From a bacterium (GTDB lineage Bacteria; Sysuimicrobiota; Sysuimicrobiia; Sysuimicrobiales; Kaftiobacteriaceae): DNA of 64,000 nucleotides. The stretch is from NCBI GenBank assembly GCA_036004445.1, contig DASYRL010000067.1:1499-65498 (forward strand), written 5' to 3'. The notes below the pieces were generated by a model that saw only the letters and a program-made list of their open reading frames with translations, was not told the origin of the DNA and ran no database searches. Both the position numbers and the translations under genes were made by a program. This document shows positions 13,587 through 38,970 of this stretch, in pieces. Every line of letters begins with the position of its first letter. Position 1 is the first letter of the stretch.

Positions 13587-15188
<1,602 letters not shown>

Positions 15189-25546: not shown

Positions 25547-26491
25547 ATGCTGGATGGGATGGCCGCCCCACGCCAACCCGCCGTATCACCCGCGACCGCG
25601 GGCGAGTTCGATCTACTGCAGGAGATGGCCCGCACGATTGTCCAGGCGGCCGACCTGCTCGCCGAGACGCTGAACGGCAAGACGCCCGTCGCGCGCGCAT
25701 GGCCGGAGATCCGCGACCTCGAGCACAAGGGCGACGCTATCGCCCGCGACCTGTTCGAGCTGCTGCTGACGCCGCGCACCACCCAACCCGACGTTGACTC
25801 GCTGCGGGCGCTGACCGGCTACCTCGACGACGTCCTCGACGGCATCGAAGCCGCGGCCGCCCGGCTGGCCATCTACCGGATCCGCCGGGCCATCGCGCCG
25901 GCGAAGGCCATGGGCCAGGTGGTGCGGGACTCCGCCCGCGAGCTGGCCGCCGCGCTCGACAGCCTCCGCCAGATGCGGGACGTATTTCCCCACACGCGGA
26001 CGCTGCACCGGCTGGAGAATCGCGGGGATGATCTCCTGCGCGAGGCGATCGAGCGGTTGTTCGCCGGACGGGCGTCGCCGAAGGATCTGCTGAAGTGGAA
26101 GGACGTTTTCGAGCTGCTGGAGAGTGCGACCGACCGCTGCGAGGACATCGCCAACGTCCTGGAGACCATCGTCGTGGCGGCGGGCGTGGAAGACCGTCTC
26201 GTCGCCGGCCGTCTGGTGATGGACGTCGGCCGCCACGAAGTGGTGGTCGACGGAACCCCCATTCCGCTGTCGGCCAAGGAGTACGCGCTGCTCCACCTCC
26301 TGCTCCGGCACCAGGGAAAAGTGGTCAGGCGAGAGCGGCTGCTTGCCGACGTTTGGGGTGAGGATTACTTCGGTGATTCACGAACGCTGGATACGCACCT
26401 GGGCTGGCTGCGCAAGAAAGTGGAACGCCGCGGTGGCGTCCGCATCGTGTCGGTGCGCGGCGTCGGATATCGTCTCGACCTCCTGCAATAG
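25547..26491 (+). CDS. PhoU-like DUF47 domain fused to OmpR/PhoB-type winged-helix DNA-binding domain
   Basis: 314 aa. N-terminal ~210 aa: IRDLEHKGDAIARDLF...LDDVLDGIE...LENRGDDLLREA...KDVFELLESATDRCEDIANV (DUF47/PhoU_div pattern). C-terminal ~95 aa: LSAKEYALLHLLLRHQGKVVRRERLLADVWG...RTLDTHLGWLRKK...VRGVGYRL. Confidence 0.8.
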   Translation: MLDGMAAPRQPAVSPATAGEFDLLQEMARTIVQAADLLAETLNGKTPVARAWPEIRDLEHKGDAIARDLFELLLTPRTTQPDVDSLRALTGYLDDVLDGIEAAAARLAIYRIRRAIAPAKAMGQVVRDSARELAAALDSLRQMRDVFPHTRTLHRLENRGDDLLREAIERLFAGRASPKDLLKWKDVFELLESATDRCEDIANVLETIVVAAGVEDRLVAGRLVMDVGRHEVVVDGTPIPLSAKEYALLHLLLRHQGKVVRRERLLADVWGEDYFGDSRTLDTHLGWLRKKVERRGGVRIVSVRGVGYRLDLLQ

Positions 26492-26501
26492 ACCCGGATT
26501 T

Positions 26502-26545
26502 CTTCACTCAACCTTGACGCACCCTTGGCGCGCACTTGAGGCACG
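26502..26545 (+). promoter_or_regulatory. four direct repeats phased at exactly 11 bp upstream of pstS (Pho-box-like)
   Basis: CTTCACTCAAC / CTTGACGCACC / CTTGGCGCGCA / CTTGAGGCACG, starting at 26502, 26513, 26524 and 26535. Confidence 0.5.
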
Positions 26546-26598
26546 TGCGCTACGCTCATTGTGGTGTAGAAAGAATGACGATACAGGGAGGACGCCGC

Positions 26599-27648
26599 AT
26601 GCCAAGGATGTTGACCGGACTGCTGCTTGCCGTCATGGTGCTGCTGGGAGGATGCCAGGCGCCCGTACCGGCACAGACCATCACGCTGAATGGAGCCGGG
26701 GCGACGTTCCCATTCCCCCTGTATTCGAAGTGGTCCCAGGTCTACGCAGCGGAGAAGGGTGTGCAGATCAACTACCAGTCGATTGGTTCCGGCGGCGGGA
26801 TCCGGCAGTTCATCGAAAAGACGGTGGACTTTGGAGCATCCGACGGCCCGATGACCGACGAGCAGATCCGCCAGGCGGGCGGCCGCGTCCTGCACGTGCC
26901 GATGGTGGCCGGCGCCGTCGTGCCCGTGTACAATATCCCGGGCGTCACGATCGGGCTGAACTTCACCCCCGACGTGCTGGCCGACATCTTCCTCGGCAAG
27001 ATCACCAAGTGGAACGATCGCCGGATCGTGCAGGCCAATCCCAAGGCGGCGCTGCCGTCCGCCGACATCGTCGTCGTTCACCGCTCCGACGGGTCGGGCA
27101 CGACCGCGATCTGGGTCAACTACCTCAGCAAGGTCAGCAAAGAGTGGAAGGAGAAGGTCGGCGAAGGTACGTCGGTGAACTGGCCGACGGGATTGGGCGG
27201 GCGCGGGAACGAGGGCGTCGCGGGATTGGTCCGGCAGACCCCCAACACACTGGGCTACGTCGAACTGGCCTACGCGCTGACCAACAAGATGACCTTTGGG
27301 AACGTGCGTAACAAGACAGGCCAGTTCGTCCGGCCGTCGCTGTCCAGCACTACCAAAGCAATGGAAGGAGCGCTTGCGTCGATCCCGGCGGACTATCGAG
27401 TGTTCTTCACCGACCCGGCCGGCCGCGACGCGTACCCGGTCGCCGGCTTCACGTGGATCCTCATCTACGGGGAGCAGGCGGATCCCGCGAAGGGAAAGGC
27501 GTTGGTGGACTTCCTGTGGTGGGCGGTGCATGACGGACAGAGGTACGCCCCGACCTTGCTCTACGCCCCTTTGCCAAAGAGTCTAGCGGCCCGCATCGAA
27601 AGTACCCTAAAGACGGTCACCGCACGGGGGCAGCCCATCCTGCGGTAG
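26599..27648 (+). CDS. pstS: phosphate ABC transporter substrate-binding lipoprotein PstS
   Basis: ORF 26536..27648 trimmed to ATG 26599 (GGGAGGA 6 nt upstream). Lipobox LLGGC, GAGATFP and SGGG motifs. Confidence 0.9.
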   Translation: MPRMLTGLLLAVMVLLGGCQAPVPAQTITLNGAGATFPFPLYSKWSQVYAAEKGVQINYQSIGSGGGIRQFIEKTVDFGASDGPMTDEQIRQAGGRVLHVPMVAGAVVPVYNIPGVTIGLNFTPDVLADIFLGKITKWNDRRIVQANPKAALPSADIVVVHRSDGSGTTAIWVNYLSKVSKEWKEKVGEGTSVNWPTGLGGRGNEGVAGLVRQTPNTLGYVELAYALTNKMTFGNVRNKTGQFVRPSLSSTTKAMEGALASIPADYRVFFTDPAGRDAYPVAGFTWILIYGEQADPAKGKALVDFLWWAVHDGQRYAPTLLYAPLPKSLAARIESTLKTVTARGQPILR

Positions 27649-27656
27649 AGGGCATC

Positions 27657-28610
27657 GTGGCGGTCAACTCAGCAGCGCCCCGGTCGCCGGTCCGCGCAAC
27701 AGGCGATCGGGTATTCCAATACGTGTTGGCGGCGACGGCCGTCGCCATCCCGCTGATCATGGGCGCGATGCTGATCGCGCTGATCGATGCCGGCATGCCC
27801 GCGATCCGGCGGTTCGGGCTCGCGTTCTTTGCCACCTCGACGTGGGATCCCGTGGCCGGTGAATTCGGCGTCCTGCCGTTCGTCTACGGCACCCTGGTGT
27901 CGTCGGCGGTCGCCCTGTTGCTTGCCGTCCCGCTGGGGTTGGGTGTGGCCATCTTCCTCTCGGAGCTGGCGCCGGGGTGGGTGCGCACGCCCGTCCGGTT
28001 CCTTGTCGAGCTGCTCGCCGCAATTCCCAGCGTGGTCTACGGCCTGTGGGGGATCTTTGTCCTCGTCCCGTGGGTGCGCGCCACACTCACGCCGCTGCTG
28101 AAATCGACGCTGGGATTTCTCCCGCTGTTCACCGGACCGCCGCTGGGCATCGGCATGCTCACCGCCGGATTGGTCCTCGCGATCATGGTCGTGCCCTTCA
28201 TCGTCGCGCTGAGTACCGAGGTCATGCGCACCGTGCCGCGCTCGCAGCGGGAGGCCGCGCTGGCCCTGGGGGCCACGGGGTGGGAAACCACCCGGACGGC
28301 CGTCATCCCCTACGCGCGCTCGGGGATCGCGGGGGCGATCTTCCTGGCGCTGGCCCGTGCGCTGGGCGAGACGATGGCCGTGACGATGGTGATCGGGAAC
28401 GTGCCACAGATCAAGGCGTCGCTGCTCGCTCCCGCTTATACCGTGTCGGCCGTCATCGCCAACGAGTTTGCCGAGGCGACGAGCGACCTCTACGTTGCCG
28501 CGCTCGTCTACGCCGGACTCGTCCTGTTCCTGGTGACCCTGACCGTCAACATCCTTGCGCGGGTGCTCGTGCGGCGCGTCGCCCGCGGCCCGGCCCTGAT
28601 CCGAGAGTGA
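27657..28610 (+). CDS. pstC: phosphate ABC transporter permease PstC
   Basis: 317 aa. Multi-TM with the EAALALGATGWET EAA loop. Confidence 0.9.
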   Translation: MAVNSAAPRSPVRATGDRVFQYVLAATAVAIPLIMGAMLIALIDAGMPAIRRFGLAFFATSTWDPVAGEFGVLPFVYGTLVSSAVALLLAVPLGLGVAIFLSELAPGWVRTPVRFLVELLAAIPSVVYGLWGIFVLVPWVRATLTPLLKSTLGFLPLFTGPPLGIGMLTAGLVLAIMVVPFIVALSTEVMRTVPRSQREAALALGATGWETTRTAVIPYARSGIAGAIFLALARALGETMAVTMVIGNVPQIKASLLAPAYTVSAVIANEFAEATSDLYVAALVYAGLVLFLVTLTVNILARVLVRRVARGPALIRE

Positions 28611-29493
28611 TGGCGATTCTGGATCGAAGCCCGAAGCCCGATGCCCGAGGCCCGTCGGTCTCGAATGGTCGGCGCCGCGTCACCAACTCGGCGATGGCGG
28701 CCGTGACGTTCCTGTGCACGCTCGCCGTGCTGACCCCGTTGTTCCTCATCTTGGGATTTCTGCTGCGCACCGGGGTGGGCGCGCTCAACCTGGACTTCTT
28801 CACGCATCTGCCCGGCGCAGCCGGCGAGCCGGGGGGTGGGATGGCGAACGCGATCGCGGGAACGATCATGCTGCTCGGCCTCGCGGGGCTGGTGGGAATC
28901 CCGCTGGGCGTGCTGGGTGGCGTGTTCCTGGCCGAGTATCCCGGCAGCCGCCTCGGAGATGTGGCCCGCTTGACCGCCGACGTGCTGAACGGGATGCCGA
29001 GCATCGTGATGGGGTTGTTTGCCTACGTCCTGATCGTGCTGCCGCTGCGCCACTTCAGCGCGCTGGCCGGGGGCGTAGCGCTTGGCGTGATGTTGATCCC
29101 GACCGTGGTCCGCACGACGGAAGAGATCGTGCGGCTGGTGCCGCAGAGCATCCGCGAAGCCTCGCTCGCGCTGGGCATCCCGGTGTGGAAGACCACGCTG
29201 CGGGTGGTGGTGCCGACGGCCTCGGCCGGCATCGTCACCGGCATCATGGTCGGCCTGGCGCGTATTGCCGGGGAAACCGCGCCGCTGCTATTCACGGCAT
29301 TTGGGAACCGCTTCTGGAACTGGAACGTGTTGAAGCCGGTCGCGGCGCTGCCGCTGCAGATCTTCGCGTATGCGATCTCGCCGTTTGACGACTGGCACCG
29401 CCAGGCCTGGGCCGGAGCGCTCGTGCTGGTGGGACTGGTGCTGGTGGTCAACGTCGCCGCGCGGTTTGCCGCGGGACGCCAGGTGAAGCTGCG

Positions 29494-29497
<4 letters not shown>
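28610..29497 (+). CDS. pstA: phosphate ABC transporter permease PstA
   Basis: ORF 27977..29497 trimmed to ATG 28610 (TGATG overlap with pstC). [16 protein letters not shown] loop. Confidence 0.9.
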
Positions 29498-30351
<854 letters not shown>

Positions 30352-30356
30352 AGATC

Positions 30357-30385
30357 GGGAACAGGGAACGGGGAACGGGGAACGG
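30357..30385 (+). repeat. tandem heptamer GGGAACN x4 filling the pstB-phoU spacer
   Basis: GGGAACA GGGAACG GGGAACG GGGAACG G, followed directly by ATG 30386. Confidence 0.85.
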
Positions 30386-31060
30386 ATGAGCCACAGCACA
30401 ATGCATCCCAGGGAGTCGTTCGAGCAGGCGCTGCGCGGCCTGGAAGACGATATCGTCCGGATGGGCACCATGGCCGGGGCGCTCATCCACCGGGCCATTG
30501 AGGCCCTGCAGGCGCGTGATGCGGGAGAAGCCGACGCCGTGATCGCCGATGACACCCGCGTCGACGCGCTCCATCTGGAAATCGAGCAGCGGGTCATCGC
30601 TCTGCTGGCGACCCAGCAACCGATGGCTCGCGACCTCCGCGAGCTGACCAGCACCATGGCGATCTCGATCGACCTGGAACGGATGGCCGACCATGCCGAG
30701 GGGATCGGCAAGGCGATCAAGCGGCTGATCAAGGAGCCCCCGCTGAAACCGGTGGTAGACATTCCCCGTATCGAACAGATCGTGCAGGGGATGCTCCAAG
30801 ACGCCCTCGACGCCTTCGTGCGCCGCGACGTGGCGCTCGCCGAGTCGCTCGCGGCGAAGGACGACATGGTCGATGACCTCCGATCGCAGGTGTTTCGGGA
30901 ACTCCTCGCCGACATGGTCAAGGATCCGCAGACCACCAGCCGGGCGTTGGAATTGATCCTCGTCGCCCAGCACCTCGAGCGGGCCGCCGACCACATCACC
31001 AACGTCGCCGAGCGGGTGATCTACCTCGTGACCGGAGAGATGCGCGAGCTCAACGTCTAG
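30386..31060 (+). CDS. phoU: phosphate signaling complex protein PhoU
   Basis: 224 aa. Two PhoU repeats, each with an (E/D)xxxD-type motif (DLERMADHA, HLERAADHI). Confidence 0.9.
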   Translation: MSHSTMHPRESFEQALRGLEDDIVRMGTMAGALIHRAIEALQARDAGEADAVIADDTRVDALHLEIEQRVIALLATQQPMARDLRELTSTMAISIDLERMADHAEGIGKAIKRLIKEPPLKPVVDIPRIEQIVQGMLQDALDAFVRRDVALAESLAAKDDMVDDLRSQVFRELLADMVKDPQTTSRALELILVAQHLERAADHITNVAERVIYLVTGEMRELNV

Positions 31061-31449
31061 TCCGGGAGCCGTCGCACGAGATCGGCGACACGGATCCGCA
31101 GATCGTCCCGGATCCCGCGGACAAACTTCAGATCCCGCCCGACGGGATCCGGCAGCGGCCAGTGCTCGTTGGGGACGCCCGGGACGACCGGGCAGGCCTC
31201 CTCGGCGCACAACCCGATGACCAGCGCCACCTCGGGGGTCAGCGCCTCGTCGAGCGATTTTGGATACTGCCCCTGCAGGTCAAAGCGCAATTCCCGCATG
31301 ACCTCATAGGTCTGCGGCATGATCTGAGTTGCCGGCGCCGTCCCCGCGGAACCTGCGCGCCACCCGGGCGGAGCCAGCGCATTGAAGAAGGCCTCCGCCA
31401 TCTGGGAGCGCATGCTGTTCCCGCGTCAGACGAATAAGACGCGTTGCAT
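31057..31449 (-). CDS. arsC: thioredoxin-coupled arsenate reductase (LMW-PTP fold), candidate selenoprotein (in-frame TGA at 31426-31428)
   Basis: ORF 31057..31413 extends upstream in frame: MQRVLFV-U-RGNSMRSQMAEAFF... The P-loop CX5R has U at the nucleophile position. The ArsC Cys82/Cys89 equivalents (GLCAEEACP) are present. GAGGAGG lies 5 nt before ATG 31449. Confidence 0.7.
31404..31422 (-). promoter_or_regulatory. weak candidate SECIS hairpin
   Basis: RNA GGGAACAGCAUGCGCUCCC: a GGGA/UCCC base with imperfect inner pairs, starting 3 nt after the UGA. Much less convincing than the other three. Confidence 0.25.
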
Positions 31450-31462
31450 AGCCGCCTCCTCG

Positions 31463-31530
31463 GTACCAGGTACTTTCCCCGGGGAATCAAGTACCTGGTA
31501 CGTATTTGGCCGACAACTCGTACCTGGTAC
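31463..31530. repeat. three copies of the near-palindromic 11-mer GTACC(A/T)GGTAC spaced 28-29 bp
   Basis: GTACCAGGTAC 31463-31473, GTACCTGGTAC 31491-31501, GTACCTGGTAC 31520-31530. A CCCCGGGG palindrome lies between copies 1 and 2. Confidence 0.8.
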
Positions 31531-31536
31531 CAGTTC

Positions 31537-32787
31537 CTACTGTGTTCCGCCGCGAGAGCGCTGGTAGGCCAACAGCAGAGGCCCGAGCACCAGCGCCAGG
31601 ACATACCCGTAGGGGACGAGTCCGGCGATCAGCCCGATGAGGAGGGCAACGCGCAGCTGGTACCGTGGCTCCTCCAGCCGGCCGACCAGGGACATCAGCC
31701 CTAGCGCTTCAAAGAGCAGGAGCACCCCGAGCATCGGCAATGGAAAGACGTGGATGATCCGGTCGAACCCGCCGCTGAAGAACGCCCCCAGGAACAGGTA
31801 CAGCAGGCCGTAGATGACGACCGATCCGCCCGTGCGGGCGCCGAAGGTGTAGTGACCGACGAACCCACCCGAGCCGTGACAGGTAGGGATTCCCCCAAAC
31901 CATGGATTCACCAGGTTCATCAGCGCGTACGTCCCGCCGATCTTCCGCAGCCCTGGCGCGCGATCCGGAAAGAAATCCCGTGCAACCTGTTGCGTGGCGA
32001 GGATCGAGTTCCCCAACGACAAGGGAATCTGCGGCAGCGCCAGGATCACGAGGCCGCTGAGGACGTCGGCGGTGACCGGGATGCGAAACGCCGGCAGTCG
32101 GAAGCCGATGCTCGCGGCCACCCCGGCGGTGTCGAGGGTAAACGCAAAGGCGTACGCCACGCCCAGCGCAATCACGAACAGGGCGGCAGGGAAGCGACGG
32201 TTGCCCAGCAGCAGGATGACGATCAGGAACGCCGCCGCCGCCAGCACGTAGCCCGGAAGTCCTTCCGCGGGGACGTACTCGCGAAGCGCCAGCGAGGCCA
32301 GCTGCAGGCCAAGGCCGAACTGGATGCCGCGGATGACGGTCGTCGGGATCACGCGTGCCAGCCACGCCAACAATCCAGTGACGGTGAGGACCAGCATCAG
32401 GATGCCGACTGCCAGTCCACCACCAAACAGCACGCCTGCGGCGAGTTTCTGGCTGATCACGATCGCAGCCATGGCCTTGAGGGGTTGAACGGGCATCGGC
32501 ATTCGGTACATCAGGCCCGTACCAACCTGCATCAGGCCGAACATGATCAACACGCTCGCGCTGTCCAGACCGGCGGCCAGGATCAGGCCAACGATCAGCG
32601 GAAGATCGGTCCCGATGTCGCCGAACGCACCGGCCAGTTCATTGCGGTCGAACCGAATGGGCGGGCGATCGGCGGTATGAGATGACGCCGAGTGGCCGGT
32701 ATCGCGGTCACGCACGCTGAGCCTAGTTCGGTCAAGGCCGTGCTCCTCCTCGTCGGCTCCGCACCCCCGCCTGACGCCAATCCGCAC
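31537..32787 (-). CDS. MOT1/SulP-related putative sulfate/molybdate transporter
   Basis: 416 aa. ELAGAFGDIGTDLPLIVGL and PMPVQPLKAMAA motifs of the MFS_MOT1-type family. Multi-TM. The start is uncertain. Confidence 0.65.
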   Translation of the reverse strand: MRIGVRRGCGADEEEHGLDRTRLSVRDRDTGHSASSHTADRPPIRFDRNELAGAFGDIGTDLPLIVGLILAAGLDSASVLIMFGLMQVGTGLMYRMPMPVQPLKAMAAIVISQKLAAGVLFGGGLAVGILMLVLTVTGLLAWLARVIPTTVIRGIQFGLGLQLASLALREYVPAEGLPGYVLAAAAFLIVILLLGNRRFPAALFVIALGVAYAFAFTLDTAGVAASIGFRLPAFRIPVTADVLSGLVILALPQIPLSLGNSILATQQVARDFFPDRAPGLRKIGGTYALMNLVNPWFGGIPTCHGSGGFVGHYTFGARTGGSVVIYGLLYLFLGAFFSGGFDRIIHVFPLPMLGVLLLFEALGLMSLVGRLEEPRYQLRVALLIGLIAGLVPYGYVLALVLGPLLLAYQRSRGGTQ

Positions 32788-33310: not shown

Positions 33311-33350
33311 TTTCCCCTACGTGTTAGGATAGAAGCGACAACTACAGACG

Positions 33351-33487
33351 ACCTTCGGGGCAGGGTGCGCCCGTTCGACGTAGCTCAGGGCAATTCCCGA
33401 CCGGCGGTACAGCCCGCTACCCGCCGATTGCGGCGGTGGATCCGGTGTGATTCCGGGGCCGACGGTATAGTCCGGATGGGAGAAGGT
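33351..33487 (+). promoter_or_regulatory. FMN riboswitch (RFN element) aptamer
   Basis: P1 ACCTTC (33351-56) / GAAGGT (33482-87). Conserved CTTCGGGGCAGGGTG, ATTCCCGACCGGCGGTA, AGCCCG, GGTGGAT, GCCGACGGTATAGTCCGGATGGGAGAAGG blocks. Upstream of ribU. Confidence 0.85.
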
Positions 33488-33497
33488 CAAACTTCAC

Positions 33498-33581: not shown

Positions 33582-34130
33582 ATGAGACGGCTCACGCAGG
33601 TTGCACTGCTTGGCGCGGTCGCCTTTGCGTTCATGTACTTCGAATTTCCACTGCCGGGGTTTCCGCCGTACCTGAAGTACGACCCGAGTGAAGTTCCCGC
33701 CCTGATCGCGGCGTTTGCCCTTGGCCCCGCATACGGAGTAGCGGTGGAAGCCATCAAGGCCGTGCTGATCGGCGTGTTCCGCTCGGCCCCCTTGGGCGGG
33801 CCATTTGGGATCTTCATGAATTTTCTCGCCGGCGTCACCCTTGCCGGCGTGGCCGGAGCGTACTATCTGTTCGAGCGCACGAAAGCCGGCGCGATCAAAT
33901 CCCTGATCATCGGCGTGCTGGCGATGTCCGGCGTCATGATCGTCGCCAACATCGCATTGACGCCGGTCTTCTTTGGCATACCGCGCCCGCAGGTCATCGC
34001 CCTGGTCCTCCCGGCACTCCTGCCGTTTAATCTGCTCAAGGGCGCCATCAGTTCTGTGGCGACCTTCTTCGTCTACAAGCGGGTGCGGGCGTATCTCTAC
34101 GAGCGTATTACGGATAGAGCCGCGTGGTGA
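33582..34130 (+). CDS. ribU: ECF transporter S component, riboflavin transporter RibU-like
   Basis: 182 aa. FEFPLPGFPPYLKYDPSEVPALIAAFALGP motif. Directly downstream of the FMN riboswitch. Confidence 0.8.
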   Translation: MRRLTQVALLGAVAFAFMYFEFPLPGFPPYLKYDPSEVPALIAAFALGPAYGVAVEAIKAVLIGVFRSAPLGGPFGIFMNFLAGVTLAGVAGAYYLFERTKAGAIKSLIIGVLAMSGVMIVANIALTPVFFGIPRPQVIALVLPALLPFNLLKGAISSVATFFVYKRVRAYLYERITDRAAW

Positions 34131-38087: not shown

Positions 38088-38264
38088 CCGGTCCTCTCGA
38101 ACGAAGTAGTCTGCCTTCCTATAGGTTCCTCGCTCGCCGCAGTGGGGGCACGTATGGTAGTTCGCTGCCAGCGTCCCCTTCTCGAAACTCCGCCGGTCCA
38201 ATCGGAGCGGAGTCTCAAACTCTCGTGCGCATGCTTTGCACGCAACCGTAAGACGCAGTTTCAT
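38070..38264 (-). CDS. small zinc-ribbon protein (hypothetical)
   Basis: 64 aa. CKAC...CPHC pairs. The C-terminal VTRDS is encoded by the heptamer repeat. Confidence 0.45.
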   Translation of the reverse strand: MKLRLTVACKACAREFETPLRLDRRSFEKGTLAANYHTCPHCGERGTYRKADYFVREDRVTRDS

Positions 38265-38283
38265 GGGTTATAGTAATCGTAGC

Positions 38284-38970
38284 ATGGCGTTTTTGAACCC
38301 GCAGGACGCCGAGTTCATCCGCAGGCGGTTCGCCTCCGAGCTGAAAGGCGACGTTACGCTGGAGTTTTTCGCTCCGAGCGCAGGGGGCCTCGTGCTGCCC
38401 GGACAGGACGGGGAGACGGCGGAGTACACGCGCAGGATCCTTGAAGAAGTGGCCGGCCTCTCCGACCGGGTCCGCCTCACCGTACACAGCGTCGTGACGG
38501 AGCCGGAGGTCGTCCGGCGGTTTGGGATCGAGCGCACGCCGGCCATCGCGTTTGTCGGTGCGGAAGATTATGGAATCCGATACTACGGGATTCCCGGCGG
38601 GTACGAGTTCGCCACCCTGCTGGAACTGATCATTGCCGTCTCGGTGGGCCGGGCCGACATCGCCGAGTCCTCAAAGGACGCGCTTGCCCGGCTGAAGGAG
38701 AGCGCGCACATTCAAGTCTTCGTCACGCCGACCTGACCGCACTGTCCGCGCCCGGCCAGGCTGGCCGGCCTGCTGGCCATCGAGAGCGCGAAGGTCAGCG
38801 CGGACATCGTCGAGGCCAGCGAGTTCCCCGAGCTCGCGGAGCGATACGCCGTCTATGCGGTTCCGAAGATTGTCATCAACGACGACACCGAGTTCGTCGG
38901 CGCCCAGCCGGAAGCCCACTTCGTCGCCTACGTGGCCAACGCGGCCGGTGTCGAAGAACCGGCCGGATAG
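38284..38970 (+). CDS. glutaredoxin-like/protein disulfide oxidoreductase (PDO, two Trx-fold units), candidate selenoprotein (in-frame TGA at 38734-38736)
   Basis: ORF 38236..38736 continues in frame: ...HIQVFVTPT-U-PHCPRPARLAGLLAIESAKVSADIVEASEFPELAERYAVYAVPKIVINDDTEFVGAQPE...*. TAG at 38968-38970. Start at ATG 38284 is tentative. Confidence 0.75.
38752..38768 (+). promoter_or_regulatory. candidate bacterial SECIS hairpin
   Basis: CCGGCC-AGGCU-GGCCGG (6 bp, loop with GG), starting 15 nt after the UGA. Confidence 0.55.

What the first reader, a model, noticed from the sequence alone, without database searches (positions are those of the whole stretch)
31057..31449. Arsenate reductase with Sec at the catalytic nucleophile, tail-to-tail with phoU
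ORF 31057..31413 lacks the P-loop. Extending upstream in frame through TGA (31426-28) to ATG 31449 (GAGGAGG 5 nt upstream) gives MQRVLFV-U-RGNSMRSQMAEAFF. This is the CX5R(S/T) loop of Trx-coupled ArsC/LMW-PTPs with U at the Cys10-equivalent position. The Cys82/Cys89-equivalent pair (LCAEEACP) is retained. The gene converges on phoU with overlapping stops (CTAG). Arsenate enters cells via Pst, so the linkage is functionally suggestive. The SECIS candidate here is weak, only an imperfect GGGA...UCCC hairpin.
Basis: partly seen in the sequence, partly recalled or inferred. Interest (0 to 1): 0.7.

Follow-up and report, generated by a model that had tools for sequence, protein, structure and literature searches.

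The report
Selenocysteine arsenate reductase of phosphatase fold
This gene encodes a small arsenate-reductase-type enzyme whose catalytic cysteine is replaced by selenocysteine (read from a UGA "stop"), a selenoprotein type absent from a 119-family inventory published in 2026 and routinely mis-annotated as a truncated protein.

Summary
On the minus strand, ATG 31449, in-frame TGA 31428-31426 and stop TAG 31059-31057 give a 130-aa protein. With U8 read as Cys it matches Pfam LMWPc over residues 4-124, and its best solved relatives are pI258 and B. subtilis ArsC. U8 aligns with Cys10, R14/S15 with the P-loop, C81/C86 with Cys82/Cys89, and D101 with Asp105.

All 62 distinct orthologous N-termini I recovered, which appear to come from candidate phylum Sysuimicrobiota (CSP1-3), keep TGA at this codon. 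They also keep a start codon exactly 7 codons upstream and a V-L-F-V peptide that varies only synonymously. More distant homologues have Cys.

TGA is an ordinary stop elsewhere in the window. The window also holds two further candidate selenoprotein genes with textbook SECIS hairpins, so the organism evidently decodes Sec.

A 59-nt extended hairpin (31413-31355) is conserved, covaries, and is more stable than synonymous recodings in Sec forms only. It does not fit the canonical bacterial SECIS model.

Linkage to pstSCAB-phoU is conserved. Arsenate reduction is inferred, not shown.

Verdict: a real Sec variant of LMW-PTP-fold ArsC that I could not find described.

The parts
31057..31449 (-). 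Full coding sequence of the Sec-containing LMW-PTP-fold ArsC-like reductase (130 aa, plus stop TAG 31059-31057)
   Evidence: Translation. Pfam LMWPc 5.3e-19 over residues 4-124. Best PDB sequence matches are pI258 ArsC at 1e-19.
31455..31461 (-). Shine-Dalgarno-like GAGGAGG, 5 nt upstream of the ATG
   Evidence: Read directly from the sequence.
31447..31449 (-). Start codon ATG, 7 codons before the UGA
   Evidence: All 62 distinct orthologous sequences have ATG or GTG at exactly this distance.
31426..31428 (-). UGA codon read as selenocysteine (U8), aligned with the Cys10 nucleophile of pI258 ArsC
   Evidence: TGA in 62 of 62 distinct orthologues. More distant homologues (L026, L027, L095-L120) and one close orthologue (L033) have TGC or TGT here. 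HMMER alignment to pI258 ArsC.
31355..31413 (-). Extended stem-loop (nt +16..+74 from the U of UGA), the candidate SECIS. Outer helix 31413-31404 pairs with 31364-31355; middle helix 31399-31393 pairs with 31373-31367; the apex is 31389-31376 (UUCUUCAAUGCGCU).
   Evidence: MFE -28.7 kcal/mol, with pair probabilities 0.96-1.0. The same architecture appears in 57 of 59 distinct Sec-form sequences. The outer helix is 92% paired, with compensatory changes at two wobble-wobble pairs. Excess stability over synonymous recodings is seen in Sec forms but not Cys forms.
31405..31410 (-). Codons for R14 and S15 of the U-X5-R-S P-loop
   Evidence: Alignment to Arg16/Ser17 of pI258 ArsC.
31207..31209 (-). 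Cys81 codon (Cys82 equivalent, first resolving cysteine)
   Evidence: Invariant in alignment A1. Aligned to Cys82.
31192..31194 (-). Cys86 codon (Cys89 equivalent, second resolving cysteine). The loop between the two cysteines is 2 residues shorter than in pI258 ArsC.
   Evidence: Invariant in A1. Aligned to Cys89 across a 2-residue gap.
31147..31149 (-). Asp101 codon (Asp105 equivalent, general acid in the DP motif)
   Evidence: Aligned to Asp105 of pI258 ArsC. In A1 Pro102 is invariant, while position 101 is Asp in most rows and Asn in five.
31463..31530 (.). Three copies of the 11-bp palindrome GTACC(A/T)GGTAC (31463-73, 31491-501, 31520-30) in the 87-bp gap between the MOT1-family gene and this gene; probable operator
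   Evidence: these are the only 3 matches in 64 kb, against 0.23 expected. Arrays of 3-4 copies sit just upstream of the orthologues in L001 and L002.
30386..31060 (+). phoU, last gene of pstS-pstC-pstA-pstB-phoU (26536-31060), convergent with this gene with a 4-nt stop overlap
   Evidence: ORF list. Pfam PhoU for the identical gene in L035. pstS and pstC hits. Synteny.
31537..32787 (-). Upstream same-strand gene: MOT1-family (molybdate/oxyanion) MFS transporter
   Evidence: Pfam PF16983, 8.9e-53. Adjacent to arsC only in the window clade and L012.

Best explanation
The gene at 31449-31057 (minus strand) encodes a 130-residue arsenate-reductase-type enzyme of the low-molecular-weight phosphotyrosine-phosphatase (LMW-PTP) fold. 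It belongs to the thioredoxin-coupled class typified by S. aureus pI258 ArsC. The catalytic nucleophile in its P-loop is selenocysteine (U8, motif U-R-G-N-S-M-R-S), encoded by UGA 31428-31426.

Translation starts at ATG 31449. UGA is recoded as Sec by the cell's SelB/tRNA-Sec system. The most likely guide is a 59-nt hairpin that begins 12 nt after the UGA (31413-31355).

The chemistry is inferred by homology, not shown. The U8 selenolate attacks arsenate held in the P-loop (R14, S15), giving a Se-As(V) adduct. Cys81 attacks the selenium, releasing arsenite and forming a selenenyl-sulfide. Cys86 attacks Cys81, giving a Cys81-Cys86 disulfide and regenerating the selenolate. Thioredoxin then reduces the disulfide.

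The conserved position next to pstSCAB-phoU suggests the enzyme detoxifies arsenate taken up by the high-affinity phosphate transporter.

What is shown: the reading frame, its conservation, the homology, the residue correspondences, the RNA hairpin and its conservation, and Sec use by the organism (indirectly). What is inferred: actual Sec insertion, SECIS function of the hairpin, arsenate as substrate, and thioredoxin as reductant.
For: 1. Frame and motif.

2. Family: Pfam LMWPc 69.3 bits against a cut-off of 23.2, covering residues 4-124. The top PDB sequence hits are all LMW-PTP-type ArsCs. U8, R14, S15, C81, C86 and D101 align to Cys10, Arg16, Ser17, Cys82, Cys89 and Asp105. An AlphaFold model of the Cys orthologue P0009 (pLDDT 88.8) has 24 ArsC structures as its best PDB matches (TM about 0.8, rmsd about 2.1 A), ahead of true LMW-PTPs.

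3. Recoding: 26 species-representative genomes and 52 metagenome loci all have TGA at this codon. Across 62 distinct N-termini, the start codon is always 7 codons upstream and TGA is present in 62 of 62. Codons for V4, L5, F6 and V7 vary synonymously while the amino acids are kept. All homologues at 50% identity or less have TGC or TGT, and one close orthologue in the same synteny has TGC. TGA terminates 19 of 51 other genes in the window, so the code is not reassigned.

4. Sec use by the organism: gene 38236-38970 scores 226.8 bits against a cut-off of 185 for TIGR02187 PDO_seleno_TRX. It has UGA at the first Cys of CPHC and a 7-bp stem with a GGC loop 22 nt downstream. The same UGA is present in L003 and L008. 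A Prx/deiodinase-like gene at 15901-15197 has U-PYC and a GGC-loop hairpin 17 nt downstream.

5. RNA: the extended hairpin is the MFE architecture in 57 of 59 Sec forms. Its outer helix is 92% paired against 40-53% when slid. Pair 18:72 is CG in 53 and GC in 6 with no mismatch, and pair 24:66 is CG in 26 and GC in 14. The synonymous-permutation z averages -1.62 in 59 Sec forms against -0.40 in 25 Cys forms (Mann-Whitney p = 7e-7), and +0.2 in a control region of the same genes.

6. Context: pstB-phoU is adjacent in 16 of the 32 genome loci, 15 of which carry the Sec gene (the sixteenth, L003, has them about 0.9 kb downstream with a gap). phoU then arsC on the same strand, about 20-80 nt apart, occurs in L013, L017, L018, L020 and L024.
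Against: No selA, selB, selD or tRNA-Sec was found in the window or in the about 0.5 Mb of fetched related DNA, so the machinery is only inferred.

The hairpin does not satisfy the published bacterial SECIS model. Its apical loop starts 37-41 nt after UGA, at or beyond the model's limit. In the window and most orthologues the loop has no G in its first two positions. Only 3 of 26 pass my strict implementation, whereas both other selenoprotein genes in the window pass easily.

The window's own copy is no more stable than its synonymous permutations (z = 0.04). RNAalifold's consensus on the codon alignment is weak at -3.6 kcal/mol. The sequences are phylogenetically related, so the p-values are optimistic.

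The protein scores far below the curated NCBIfam cut-offs for ArsC equivalogs (71.3 against 174.3 and 60.8 against 157.6). No arsR, arsB or acr3 is in the window. The substrate is therefore not established.
Confidence: 0.78

Rival explanations
1. Truncated gene or pseudogene. TGA is a true stop, the product is the 118-aa protein starting at Met13 (31413), and it lacks the P-loop and has no reductase activity. This is how gene callers and NCBI annotate it.
For: Public gene calls start after the TGA: 113-122-aa proteins named 'arsenate reductase ArsC'. No sel genes are in the window. The hairpin fails the canonical SECIS model.
Against: A dead N-terminus would not keep a start codon exactly 7 codons upstream and TGA (never TAA or TAG) in 62 of 62 distinct sequences. 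Nor would it keep the V-L-F-V peptide while its codons vary synonymously, or the downstream x-x-N-[ST]-A-R-S P-loop in frame. Within the Sec clade the downstream Met13 is present only in the window's own subclade; elsewhere that residue is Ala. Sec-specific RNA structure follows the TGA.
Confidence: 0.04
2. UGA is read through, but not as Sec. It could be near-cognate Trp, Cys or Arg insertion or another recoding route, with the hairpin acting as a generic read-through stimulator.
For: The hairpin is unlike the two canonical SECIS elements in the same window. The machinery has not been seen directly.
Against: The codon sits exactly at the redox-active nucleophile, where homologues have Cys. 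This is the classic Sec/Cys signature. The same genome carries a member of a known selenoprotein family with UGA at its CxxC. Trp, Arg or Gly at this position would abolish catalysis.
Confidence: 0.05
3. It is a Sec enzyme of the ArsC fold, but arsenate detoxification is not its physiological role. It could reduce another oxyanion, perhaps supplied by the adjacent MOT1-family transporter. It could instead act as a phosphatase or a redox sensor tied to phosphate signalling.
For: It scores well below the ArsC equivalog cut-offs. The CX4C spacing differs from CX6C. No ars operon genes are nearby. Its neighbours are pst-phoU and, in the window clade and L012, a MOT1-family transporter. A dedicated palindromic operator array lies upstream.
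Against: Every ArsC-specific catalytic residue is kept and invariant, including the two resolving cysteines that plain phosphatases lack. Sequence and fold searches both rank ArsCs above LMW-PTPs. Arsenate entry through Pst is established physiology, so pst linkage fits arsenate. MOT1 adjacency is not conserved across the family.
Confidence: 0.13

Closest known systems
Thioredoxin-coupled LMW-PTP-fold arsenate reductases (S. aureus pI258 ArsC, B. subtilis ArsC, D. indicus ArsC2; NCBIfam TIGR02691)
   Same: Same fold: phmmer 1e-19 over the full length and, for the Cys orthologue's model, TM about 0.8 and rmsd about 2.1 A. It has the same X5-R-S P-loop, equivalents of Cys82, Cys89 and Asp105, and a similar size of about 130 aa. 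The inferred three-step redox relay with thioredoxin recycling is also shared.
   Different: The nucleophile is Sec instead of Cys10. The resolving-cysteine loop is CX4C rather than CX6C. Sequence identity is only about 35-38%, and the score of 71 is far below the equivalog cut-off of 174. The genomic context is pst-phoU rather than an ars operon.
Known selenoprotein 'arsenate reductases' (ArsC 1: PF03960/COG1393/TIGR00014, UxxS; 'arsenate reductase-like': NF041106/cd03032, UxxC), found in the Sargasso Sea and GOS metagenomes
   Same: They are also annotated as arsenate reductases with Sec at the catalytic cysteine, and were also found only computationally.
   Different: They have an unrelated fold (thioredoxin-like ArsC/Spx family) and a different mechanism class. 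The window protein has no match to those models.
Glutaredoxin-coupled LMW-PTP-type ArsC of Synechocystis (TIGR02689) and mycothiol-dependent C. glutamicum ArsC1/2
   Same: Same fold and P-loop.
   Different: Those enzymes use a Cys80/Cys82 pair or no resolving cysteines. Here the two cysteines align with Cys82/Cys89 of the thioredoxin class. The score of 60.8 is below the cut-off of 157.6.
LMW protein tyrosine/arginine phosphatases (Wzb, YwlE, MPtpA)
   Same: Same superfamily (Pfam PF01451) and the same CX5R(S/T) loop architecture.
   Different: They are weaker matches: E about 1e-4 in sequence, and TM 0.7-0.8 with rmsd 3-4.6 A in structure. They lack the two resolving cysteines that are invariant here.
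Canonical bacterial SECIS elements (bSECIS model: 3-9-nt apical loop with G in its first two positions, 16-37 nt after UGA)
   Same: A stable stem-loop lies within the coding sequence immediately downstream of UGA. The apex distance of 37 nt is at the model's limit. A minority of orthologues have a UGUUCAAC loop that fits.
   Different: The hairpin is much longer (59 nt, three helices). The apex is usually 37-41 nt away. The loop is built from the invariant Phe-Asn codons (UUCAA) and usually has no leading G. The two other candidate selenoprotein genes in the same window use short GGC-triloop hairpins 17-22 nt after UGA.

Membership tests
Pfam PF01451 LMWPc (LMW-PTP superfamily) | Score above the curated gathering threshold over the whole domain | tested here: met
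   69.3 bits against 23.2, covering residues 4-124 and profile positions 1-143 of 144, with U8 entered as C.
LMW-PTP-fold arsenate reductase, thioredoxin-coupled class (pI258 ArsC type) | NCBIfam equivalog model TIGR02691 (or PRK13530) above its cut-off | tested here: not met
   71.3 bits against 174.3, and 72.9 against 215. This is a divergent subfamily, not an equivalog member.
LMW-PTP-fold arsenate reductase, thioredoxin-coupled class (pI258 ArsC type) | P-loop C-X5-R-(S/T) with a cysteine nucleophile at the Cys10 position | tested here: inconclusive
   The loop is present as U-RGNSM-R-S and aligns with CTGNSCRS. The nucleophile codon is UGA (Sec) rather than Cys. This is the variant feature.
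LMW-PTP-fold arsenate reductase, thioredoxin-coupled class (pI258 ArsC type) | Two resolving cysteines equivalent to Cys82 and Cys89, and the Asp105 general acid | tested here: met
   C81, C86 and D101 align to Cys82, Cys89 and Asp105. C81 and C86 are invariant in 22 sequences. The spacing is CX4C instead of CX6C.
LMW-PTP-fold arsenate reductase, thioredoxin-coupled class (pI258 ArsC type) | Three-dimensional fold closest to solved ArsCs | tested here: met
   The model of Cys orthologue P0009 (64% identical to the window protein, pLDDT 88.8) has ArsC structures as its top 24 PDB matches, with TM about 0.8. The window protein itself could not be submitted.
LMW-PTP-fold arsenate reductase, thioredoxin-coupled class (pI258 ArsC type) | Thioredoxin-dependent reduction of arsenate to arsenite | not testable with these tools
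   This needs an enzyme assay.
Bacterial selenoprotein | In-frame UGA aligned with Cys in homologues, with conserved coding sequence on both sides | tested here: met
   TGA in 62 of 62 distinct sequences; Cys in 25 metagenome outgroups plus L026, L027 and L033; the upstream peptide is under purifying selection.
Bacterial selenoprotein | SECIS element fitting the bSECIS consensus (loop 3-9 nt, G in the first two loop positions, 16-37 nt from UGA, at most -7.5 kcal/mol) | tested here: not met
   The window copy and 22 other genome copies fail my strict scan; 3 of 26 pass at spacing 37. A conserved non-canonical hairpin exists instead. [quoted passage not shown]
Bacterial selenoprotein | Sec-decoding machinery (selA, selB, selD, tRNA-Sec) in the same genome | tested here: inconclusive
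Indirect support: a TIGR02187 PDO_seleno_TRX gene above cut-off with UGA at its CxxC and a canonical SECIS, plus a Prx-like U-xx-C gene, both in the same window.
Known Sec-containing arsenate reductase families (PF03960 / TIGR00014 / NF041106) | Match to the thioredoxin-fold ArsC/Spx models with a UxxS or UxxC motif | tested here: not met
   No such hit in the Pfam or NCBIfam scans. The motif here is U-X5-R-S in a different fold.

The most novel reading that the evidence does not exclude
This would be the first natural selenoenzyme of the LMW-PTP/ArsC P-loop fold: a lineage-wide selenoprotein family in Sysuimicrobiota (CSP1-3). Sec would attack an oxyanion directly, giving a Se-As(V) intermediate. 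Insertion would be directed by a non-canonical, unusually long and distant SECIS whose loop is built from invariant Phe-Asn codons, which would widen the rules for bacterial SECIS recognition. Expression would be coupled to the phosphate-starvation (pst-phoU) locus.
Probability: 0.45. Interest if true: 0.7.

Novelty: new variant of a known kind. Interest (0 to 1): 0.6.

Why it matters
1. It adds a structurally new class to the prokaryotic selenoproteome. A 2026 inventory of 119 selenoprotein families lists only thioredoxin-fold Sec 'arsenate reductases' and nothing with PF01451.

2. It exposes a systematic annotation error. Most of the listed public homologues are called as 113-122-aa proteins without their active site and are still named ArsC.

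3. It offers a natural Sec/Cys pair for asking what selenium buys in arsenate reduction. One close orthologue in the same synteny has Cys.

4. Its hairpin differs from two canonical SECIS elements in the same genome. It is therefore a test case for how flexible SelB recognition is.

5. The conserved pst-phoU linkage supports a physiological coupling between high-affinity phosphate uptake and arsenate detoxification.

Tried and rejected
Orthologues with H-N instead of G-N have no pairing there.
- A short hairpin right after UGA (GAGUGGGC-AACAGC-GCCCGCUC) occurs only in some orthologues and sits too close to the UGA.
- An alternative GGAG-tetraloop hairpin at nt 27-42 shares GAUGGCGG with the Prx-like gene's SECIS. 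It is only -5.1 kcal/mol, has zero ensemble probability, and is not conserved outside the window clade.
- RNAalifold on the codon alignment gave only -3.6 kcal/mol. The middle helix uses different registers in different clades, so I switched to per-sequence folds and synonymous permutation.
- Rfam at gathering thresholds found only an FMN riboswitch and a tRNA.
- A tblastn search with E. coli SelA, SelB and SelD, plus tRNA scans on the window and the 38 lineage loci held at that point, found nothing. Pfam scans of about 45 window ORFs found no sel or ars genes.
- Genetic-code reassignment is rejected: 19 of 51 window genes end in TGA.
- Literature searches combining selenocysteine/selenoprotein with LMW-PTP, protein tyrosine phosphatase or COG0394 found no description of this family. 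Supplements of the two 2026 papers were not available.
Full report
**1. The observation**

On the minus strand the sequence reads GAGGAGG (31461-31455), then 5 nt, then ATG (31449-31447). Six sense codons follow, then TGA (31428-31426). The frame stays open to TAG (31059-31057).

- The mechanical ORF list reports only 31057..31413, a 118-aa product starting MRSQMAEAFF.
- Read through, the product is MQRVLFV-U-RGNSMRSQMAEAFF...GLCAEEACP...LPDP..., 130 residues.
- phoU (30386..31060, +) overlaps its stop by 4 nt (CTAG).

**2. What the protein is**

With U8 entered as Cys, the protein matches Pfam LMWPc (PF01451) at 5.3e-19. The match runs from residue 4 and profile position 1, so the seven codons upstream of the TGA belong to the domain.

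A sequence search of the PDB returns LMW-PTP-fold arsenate reductases first. These are S. aureus pI258 ArsC (1.1e-19), then the A. fulgidus, Synechocystis, B. subtilis and C. glutamicum enzymes. True LMW phosphatases come only at about 1e-4.

The printed alignment gives these correspondences:

| Window protein | pI258 ArsC |
|---|---|
| U8 | Cys10 |
| R14 / S15 | Arg16 / Ser17 |
| C81 | Cys82 |
| C86 | Cys89 (across a 2-residue deletion) |
| D101 | Asp105 |

C81 and C86 are the only cysteines in the protein and are invariant in 22 aligned homologues.

I therefore modelled its 64%-identical Cys orthologue P0009. The model has pLDDT 88.8 and pTM 0.86. Its 24 best PDB matches are all ArsC structures (TM about 0.8, rmsd about 2.1 A), ahead of LMW-PTPs.

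The protein is nevertheless a divergent subfamily. NCBIfam equivalog models for thioredoxin-type ArsC (71.3 against 174.3 bits) and glutaredoxin-type LMW ArsC (60.8 against 157.6 bits) are far from their cut-offs.

**3. Is the UGA decoded?**

A protein search showed that nearly all close homologues in public databases are 113-122 aa and cover only 86-90% of the query. They start at the Met after the P-loop, or at an alternative start right after the TGA. That is the signature of gene callers stopping at a Sec codon.

I fetched the DNA. Thirty-two loci came from species-representative genomes, and 26 of them belong to the close clade. All close-clade loci except L021, whose match does not reach the N-terminus, have an in-frame stop at exactly this codon, and it is always TGA.

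Named members belong to Candidatus Sysuimicrobiota (CSP1-3), for example Ca. Fervidifonticultor, Calidihabitans and Geohabitans. The rest are labelled 'bacterium' or 'Armatimonadota bacterium' (PMC11604079).

Of 80 metagenome loci, 52 have TGA. The 25 with TGC or TGT are all the more distant ones, at 50% identity or less.

Over 62 distinct N-terminal nucleotide sequences:

- the start codon (ATG in 47, GTG in 15) is always 7 codons before the TGA;
- TGA is present in 62 of 62;
- V4, L5, F6 and V7 are conserved as amino acids while their codons vary (GTC/GTG/GTT/GTA; CTG/CTC/TTA/TTG/CTT/CTA; TTC/TTT).

That pattern is purifying selection on a translated peptide and is incompatible with a dead leader.

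One close orthologue, P0009 (locus L033), lies in the same ribU...phoU synteny and has TGC. It is a Sec/Cys switch within the clade.

TGA is not reassigned in this genome. It terminates 19 of 51 high-confidence genes in the window.

**4. Does the organism use Sec?**

No selA, selB, selD or tRNA-Sec lies in the window or in the related loci held at that point. A scan for TGA-interrupted coding frames did, however, find two more candidate selenoprotein genes in the window.

The first is at 38236-38970 (+).
- It has UGA (38734-38736) at the first Cys of a TPT-U-PHC-P motif.
- The read-through protein scores 226.8 bits against a cut-off of 185 for TIGR02187 'PDO_seleno_TRX'. [quoted passage not shown]
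- The same UGA and conserved downstream frame occur in L003 and L008.
- A 7-bp stem with a GGC loop lies 22 nt after the UGA.

The second is at 15901-15197 (-).
- It has FGSFT-U-PYC, with UGA at 15691-15689.
- It hits Redoxin, AhpC-TSA and deiodinase-related models across the UGA.
- A 7-bp stem with a GGC loop lies 17 nt after the UGA.

The organism therefore almost certainly has the Sec machinery, encoded elsewhere in the genome.

**5. The RNA signal**

Folding 84 nt after the UGA instead gives one long hairpin in the window and nearly all orthologues. It has three parts:

- an outer helix, nt 16-25 with 65-74 (GCCCGCUCCC / GGGUGGCGGGC type; window 31413-31404 with 31364-31355);
- a middle helix, nt 30-36 with 56-62 in the window, in a register shifted by one codon in other clades;
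- an apex at nt 40-53, built from the invariant Phe-Asn codons (UUCAA).

In the window the hairpin is -28.7 kcal/mol, with pair probabilities of 0.96-1.0. Among 59 distinct Sec-form sequences, 57 have their main apex at nt 38-50.

The outer helix is 92% paired on the codon alignment, against 40-53% for slid controls. It shows compensatory changes at two pairs that join third-codon positions:

- pair 18:72 is CG in 53 and GC in 6, with no mismatch;
- pair 24:66 is CG in 26, GC in 14 and UG in 5.

The G18/C72 state arose at least twice. In the window clade Ala13 became Met (AUG) together with a synonymous CGG to CGC change 54 nt away. It arose separately in L003 and L015.

I tested stability by permuting synonymous codons within each gene.

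| Sequence set | Mean z |
|---|---|
| 75 nt after UGA, 59 Sec forms | -1.62 (95% negative) |
| Same region, 25 Cys forms | -0.40 |
| Control region (codons 60-85), Sec genes | +0.2 |

The Sec-versus-Cys difference gives Mann-Whitney p = 7e-7.

Three caveats apply.

- The sequences are related, so these p-values are optimistic.
- The window's own copy has z = 0.04.
- RNAalifold's strict consensus is weak.

The hairpin also does not fit the published bSECIS model: a 3-9-nt loop, G in the first two loop positions, and 16-37 nt from UGA (PMC13188914). Only 3 of 26 orthologues pass (UGUUCAAC loop at spacing 37), and the window copy does not. Whether and how SelB reads this structure is the main open point.

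**6. Context**

The gene sits at the end of pstS-pstC-pstA-pstB-phoU (26536-31060).

- pstB-phoU is adjacent to the orthologue in most loci where enough flank is available.
- The arrangement is convergent in the window's clade.
- It is same-strand, phoU then arsC at about 20-80 nt, in L013, L017, L018, L020 and L024. L029 is also same-strand but has a gap of about 1 kb and a disrupted gene.

Retained linkage despite the inversion, and probable co-transcription in one clade, fit arsenate entering through the Pst system. That last point is established physiology rather than something tested here.

On the other side is a MOT1-family oxyanion transporter (31537-32787, PF16983). It is adjacent only in the window clade and L012.

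The 87-bp gap between the two genes holds three GTACC(A/T)GGTAC palindromes, about 28-29 bp apart. These are the only copies in 64 kb. Arrays of 3-4 copies also precede the orthologues in L001 and L002, so this is a likely operator.

No arsR, arsB, acr3 or arsA was found among about 45 window ORFs scanned.

**7. Mechanism**

This section is inference by homology to pI258 ArsC.

1. The U8 selenolate attacks arsenate bound in the P-loop.
2. Cys81 attacks the selenium, releasing arsenite and forming a Se-S bond.
3. Cys86 resolves that bond to a Cys81-Cys86 disulfide.
4. Thioredoxin reduces the disulfide.

Selenium's lower pKa and better leaving-group character would plausibly speed steps 1 and 2. 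None of this is measured.

**8. Comparison with what is known, and novelty**

Selenoprotein 'arsenate reductases' have been known since the Sargasso Sea and GOS analyses. They belong to the thioredoxin-fold ArsC/Spx family (COG1393, PF03960, TIGR00014 with UxxS; cd03032 or NF041106 with UxxC) (PMC1088965, PMC2398784, PMC9312934, PMC13188914).

The 119-family inventory of May 2026 contains no PF01451 or LMW-PTP family. Full-text searches found no description of one. NCBI names the truncated ORFs 'arsenate reductase ArsC'.

Within the limits of the library I could search, this is an undescribed Sec variant of a well-known enzyme family. It is confined, so far as seen, to one uncultured phylum. 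The phenomenon of Sec replacing a redox Cys is familiar, so I class it as a new variant of a known kind.

**9. Verdict**

- Confidence is about 0.8 that this is a translated Sec-containing ArsC-fold reductase.
- Confidence is lower, about 0.65-0.7, that arsenate is the physiological substrate.
- SECIS function of the hairpin is plausible but unproven.

Noticed in passing
window 38236-38970 (+), TGA 38734-38736; also L003 1258-338 (-) and L008 1325-195 (-): A second candidate selenoprotein gene: a protein disulfide oxidoreductase (AhpF-N-terminal homologue) with TPT-U-PHC-P. It scores 226.8 bits for TIGR02187 PDO_seleno_TRX against a cut-off of 185. A canonical SECIS (CCGGCCA-GGC-UGGCCGG, 38752-38768) lies 22 nt after the UGA. 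The ORF list truncates the gene at 38736.
   Followed up: partly
window 15901-15197 (-), TGA 15691-15689: A third candidate selenoprotein gene: a Redoxin/AhpC-TSA/deiodinase-related protein with FGSFT-U-PYC. A GGAUGGC-GGC-GCCAUCC hairpin (15678-15662) lies 17 nt after the UGA. It sits next to a Cys-form DUF3179 gene (13983-15188; motif CPLC), a family that also has selenoprotein members.
   Followed up: partly
window 31463-31473, 31491-31501, 31520-31530; L001 5916-5984; L002 5736-5835: An array of 3-4 perfect 11-bp palindromes, GTACC(N)GGTAC, at about 29-bp spacing directly upstream of the Sec-arsC start. These are the only copies in the 64-kb window, and the array is conserved in the closest orthologous loci. 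It is probably an operator for an unidentified dimeric regulator.
   Followed up: partly
window 31537-32787 (-): A MOT1-family (PF16983) oxyanion transporter lies immediately upstream on the same strand as the Sec-arsC. The same pairing occurs in L012 but not in most orthologous loci. Its substrate is unknown.
   Followed up: partly
window 33347-33491 (+) and 33582-34130 (+): An FMN riboswitch (Rfam RF00050, 99.4 bits) lies upstream of an ECF-type riboflavin transporter S component (ribU). The ribU-amidohydrolase pair is syntenic with the arsC locus across the lineage.
   Followed up: no
window 25547-26491 (+): The gene just upstream of pstS combines a PhoU_div (DUF47) domain with a C-terminal OmpR/PhoB-type DNA-binding domain (Trans_reg_C). 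No receiver domain was detected. This is an unusual architecture for a phosphate regulator.
   Followed up: no
codon 7 of the arsC family (window 31431-31429): The Val codon immediately before the UGA is GTC in 57 of 62 distinct sequences. The Val codon three positions earlier is spread over GTC, GTG, GTT and GTA. This may be a context effect on UGA recoding.
   Followed up: no
L033 1908-2315 (protein P0009): A 64%-identical orthologue in the same ribU...phoU synteny has TGC (Cys) instead of TGA. It still carries the outer-helix sequences of the hairpin, so it looks like a recent Sec-to-Cys switch. It is a natural control for experiments.
   Followed up: partly
L028 about 6040 (Thermoplasmata archaeon contig JASHUS010000076.1): An archaeal Cys-form homologue has an in-frame TAG at the Ser position of the CX5R-S loop (CVENAGR-TAG-LMAKAFF). 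It could be a pseudogene, a sequencing error or pyrrolysine-type read-through. I did not examine it further.
   Followed up: no
L001 (DASXUC010000047.1) and L038 (DASXUC010000111.1): The same MAG assembly (GCA_036505015.1) holds two versions of the locus. One is identical to the window's gene and one is 91% identical. This points to either two strains binned together or two paralogous copies.
   Followed up: no
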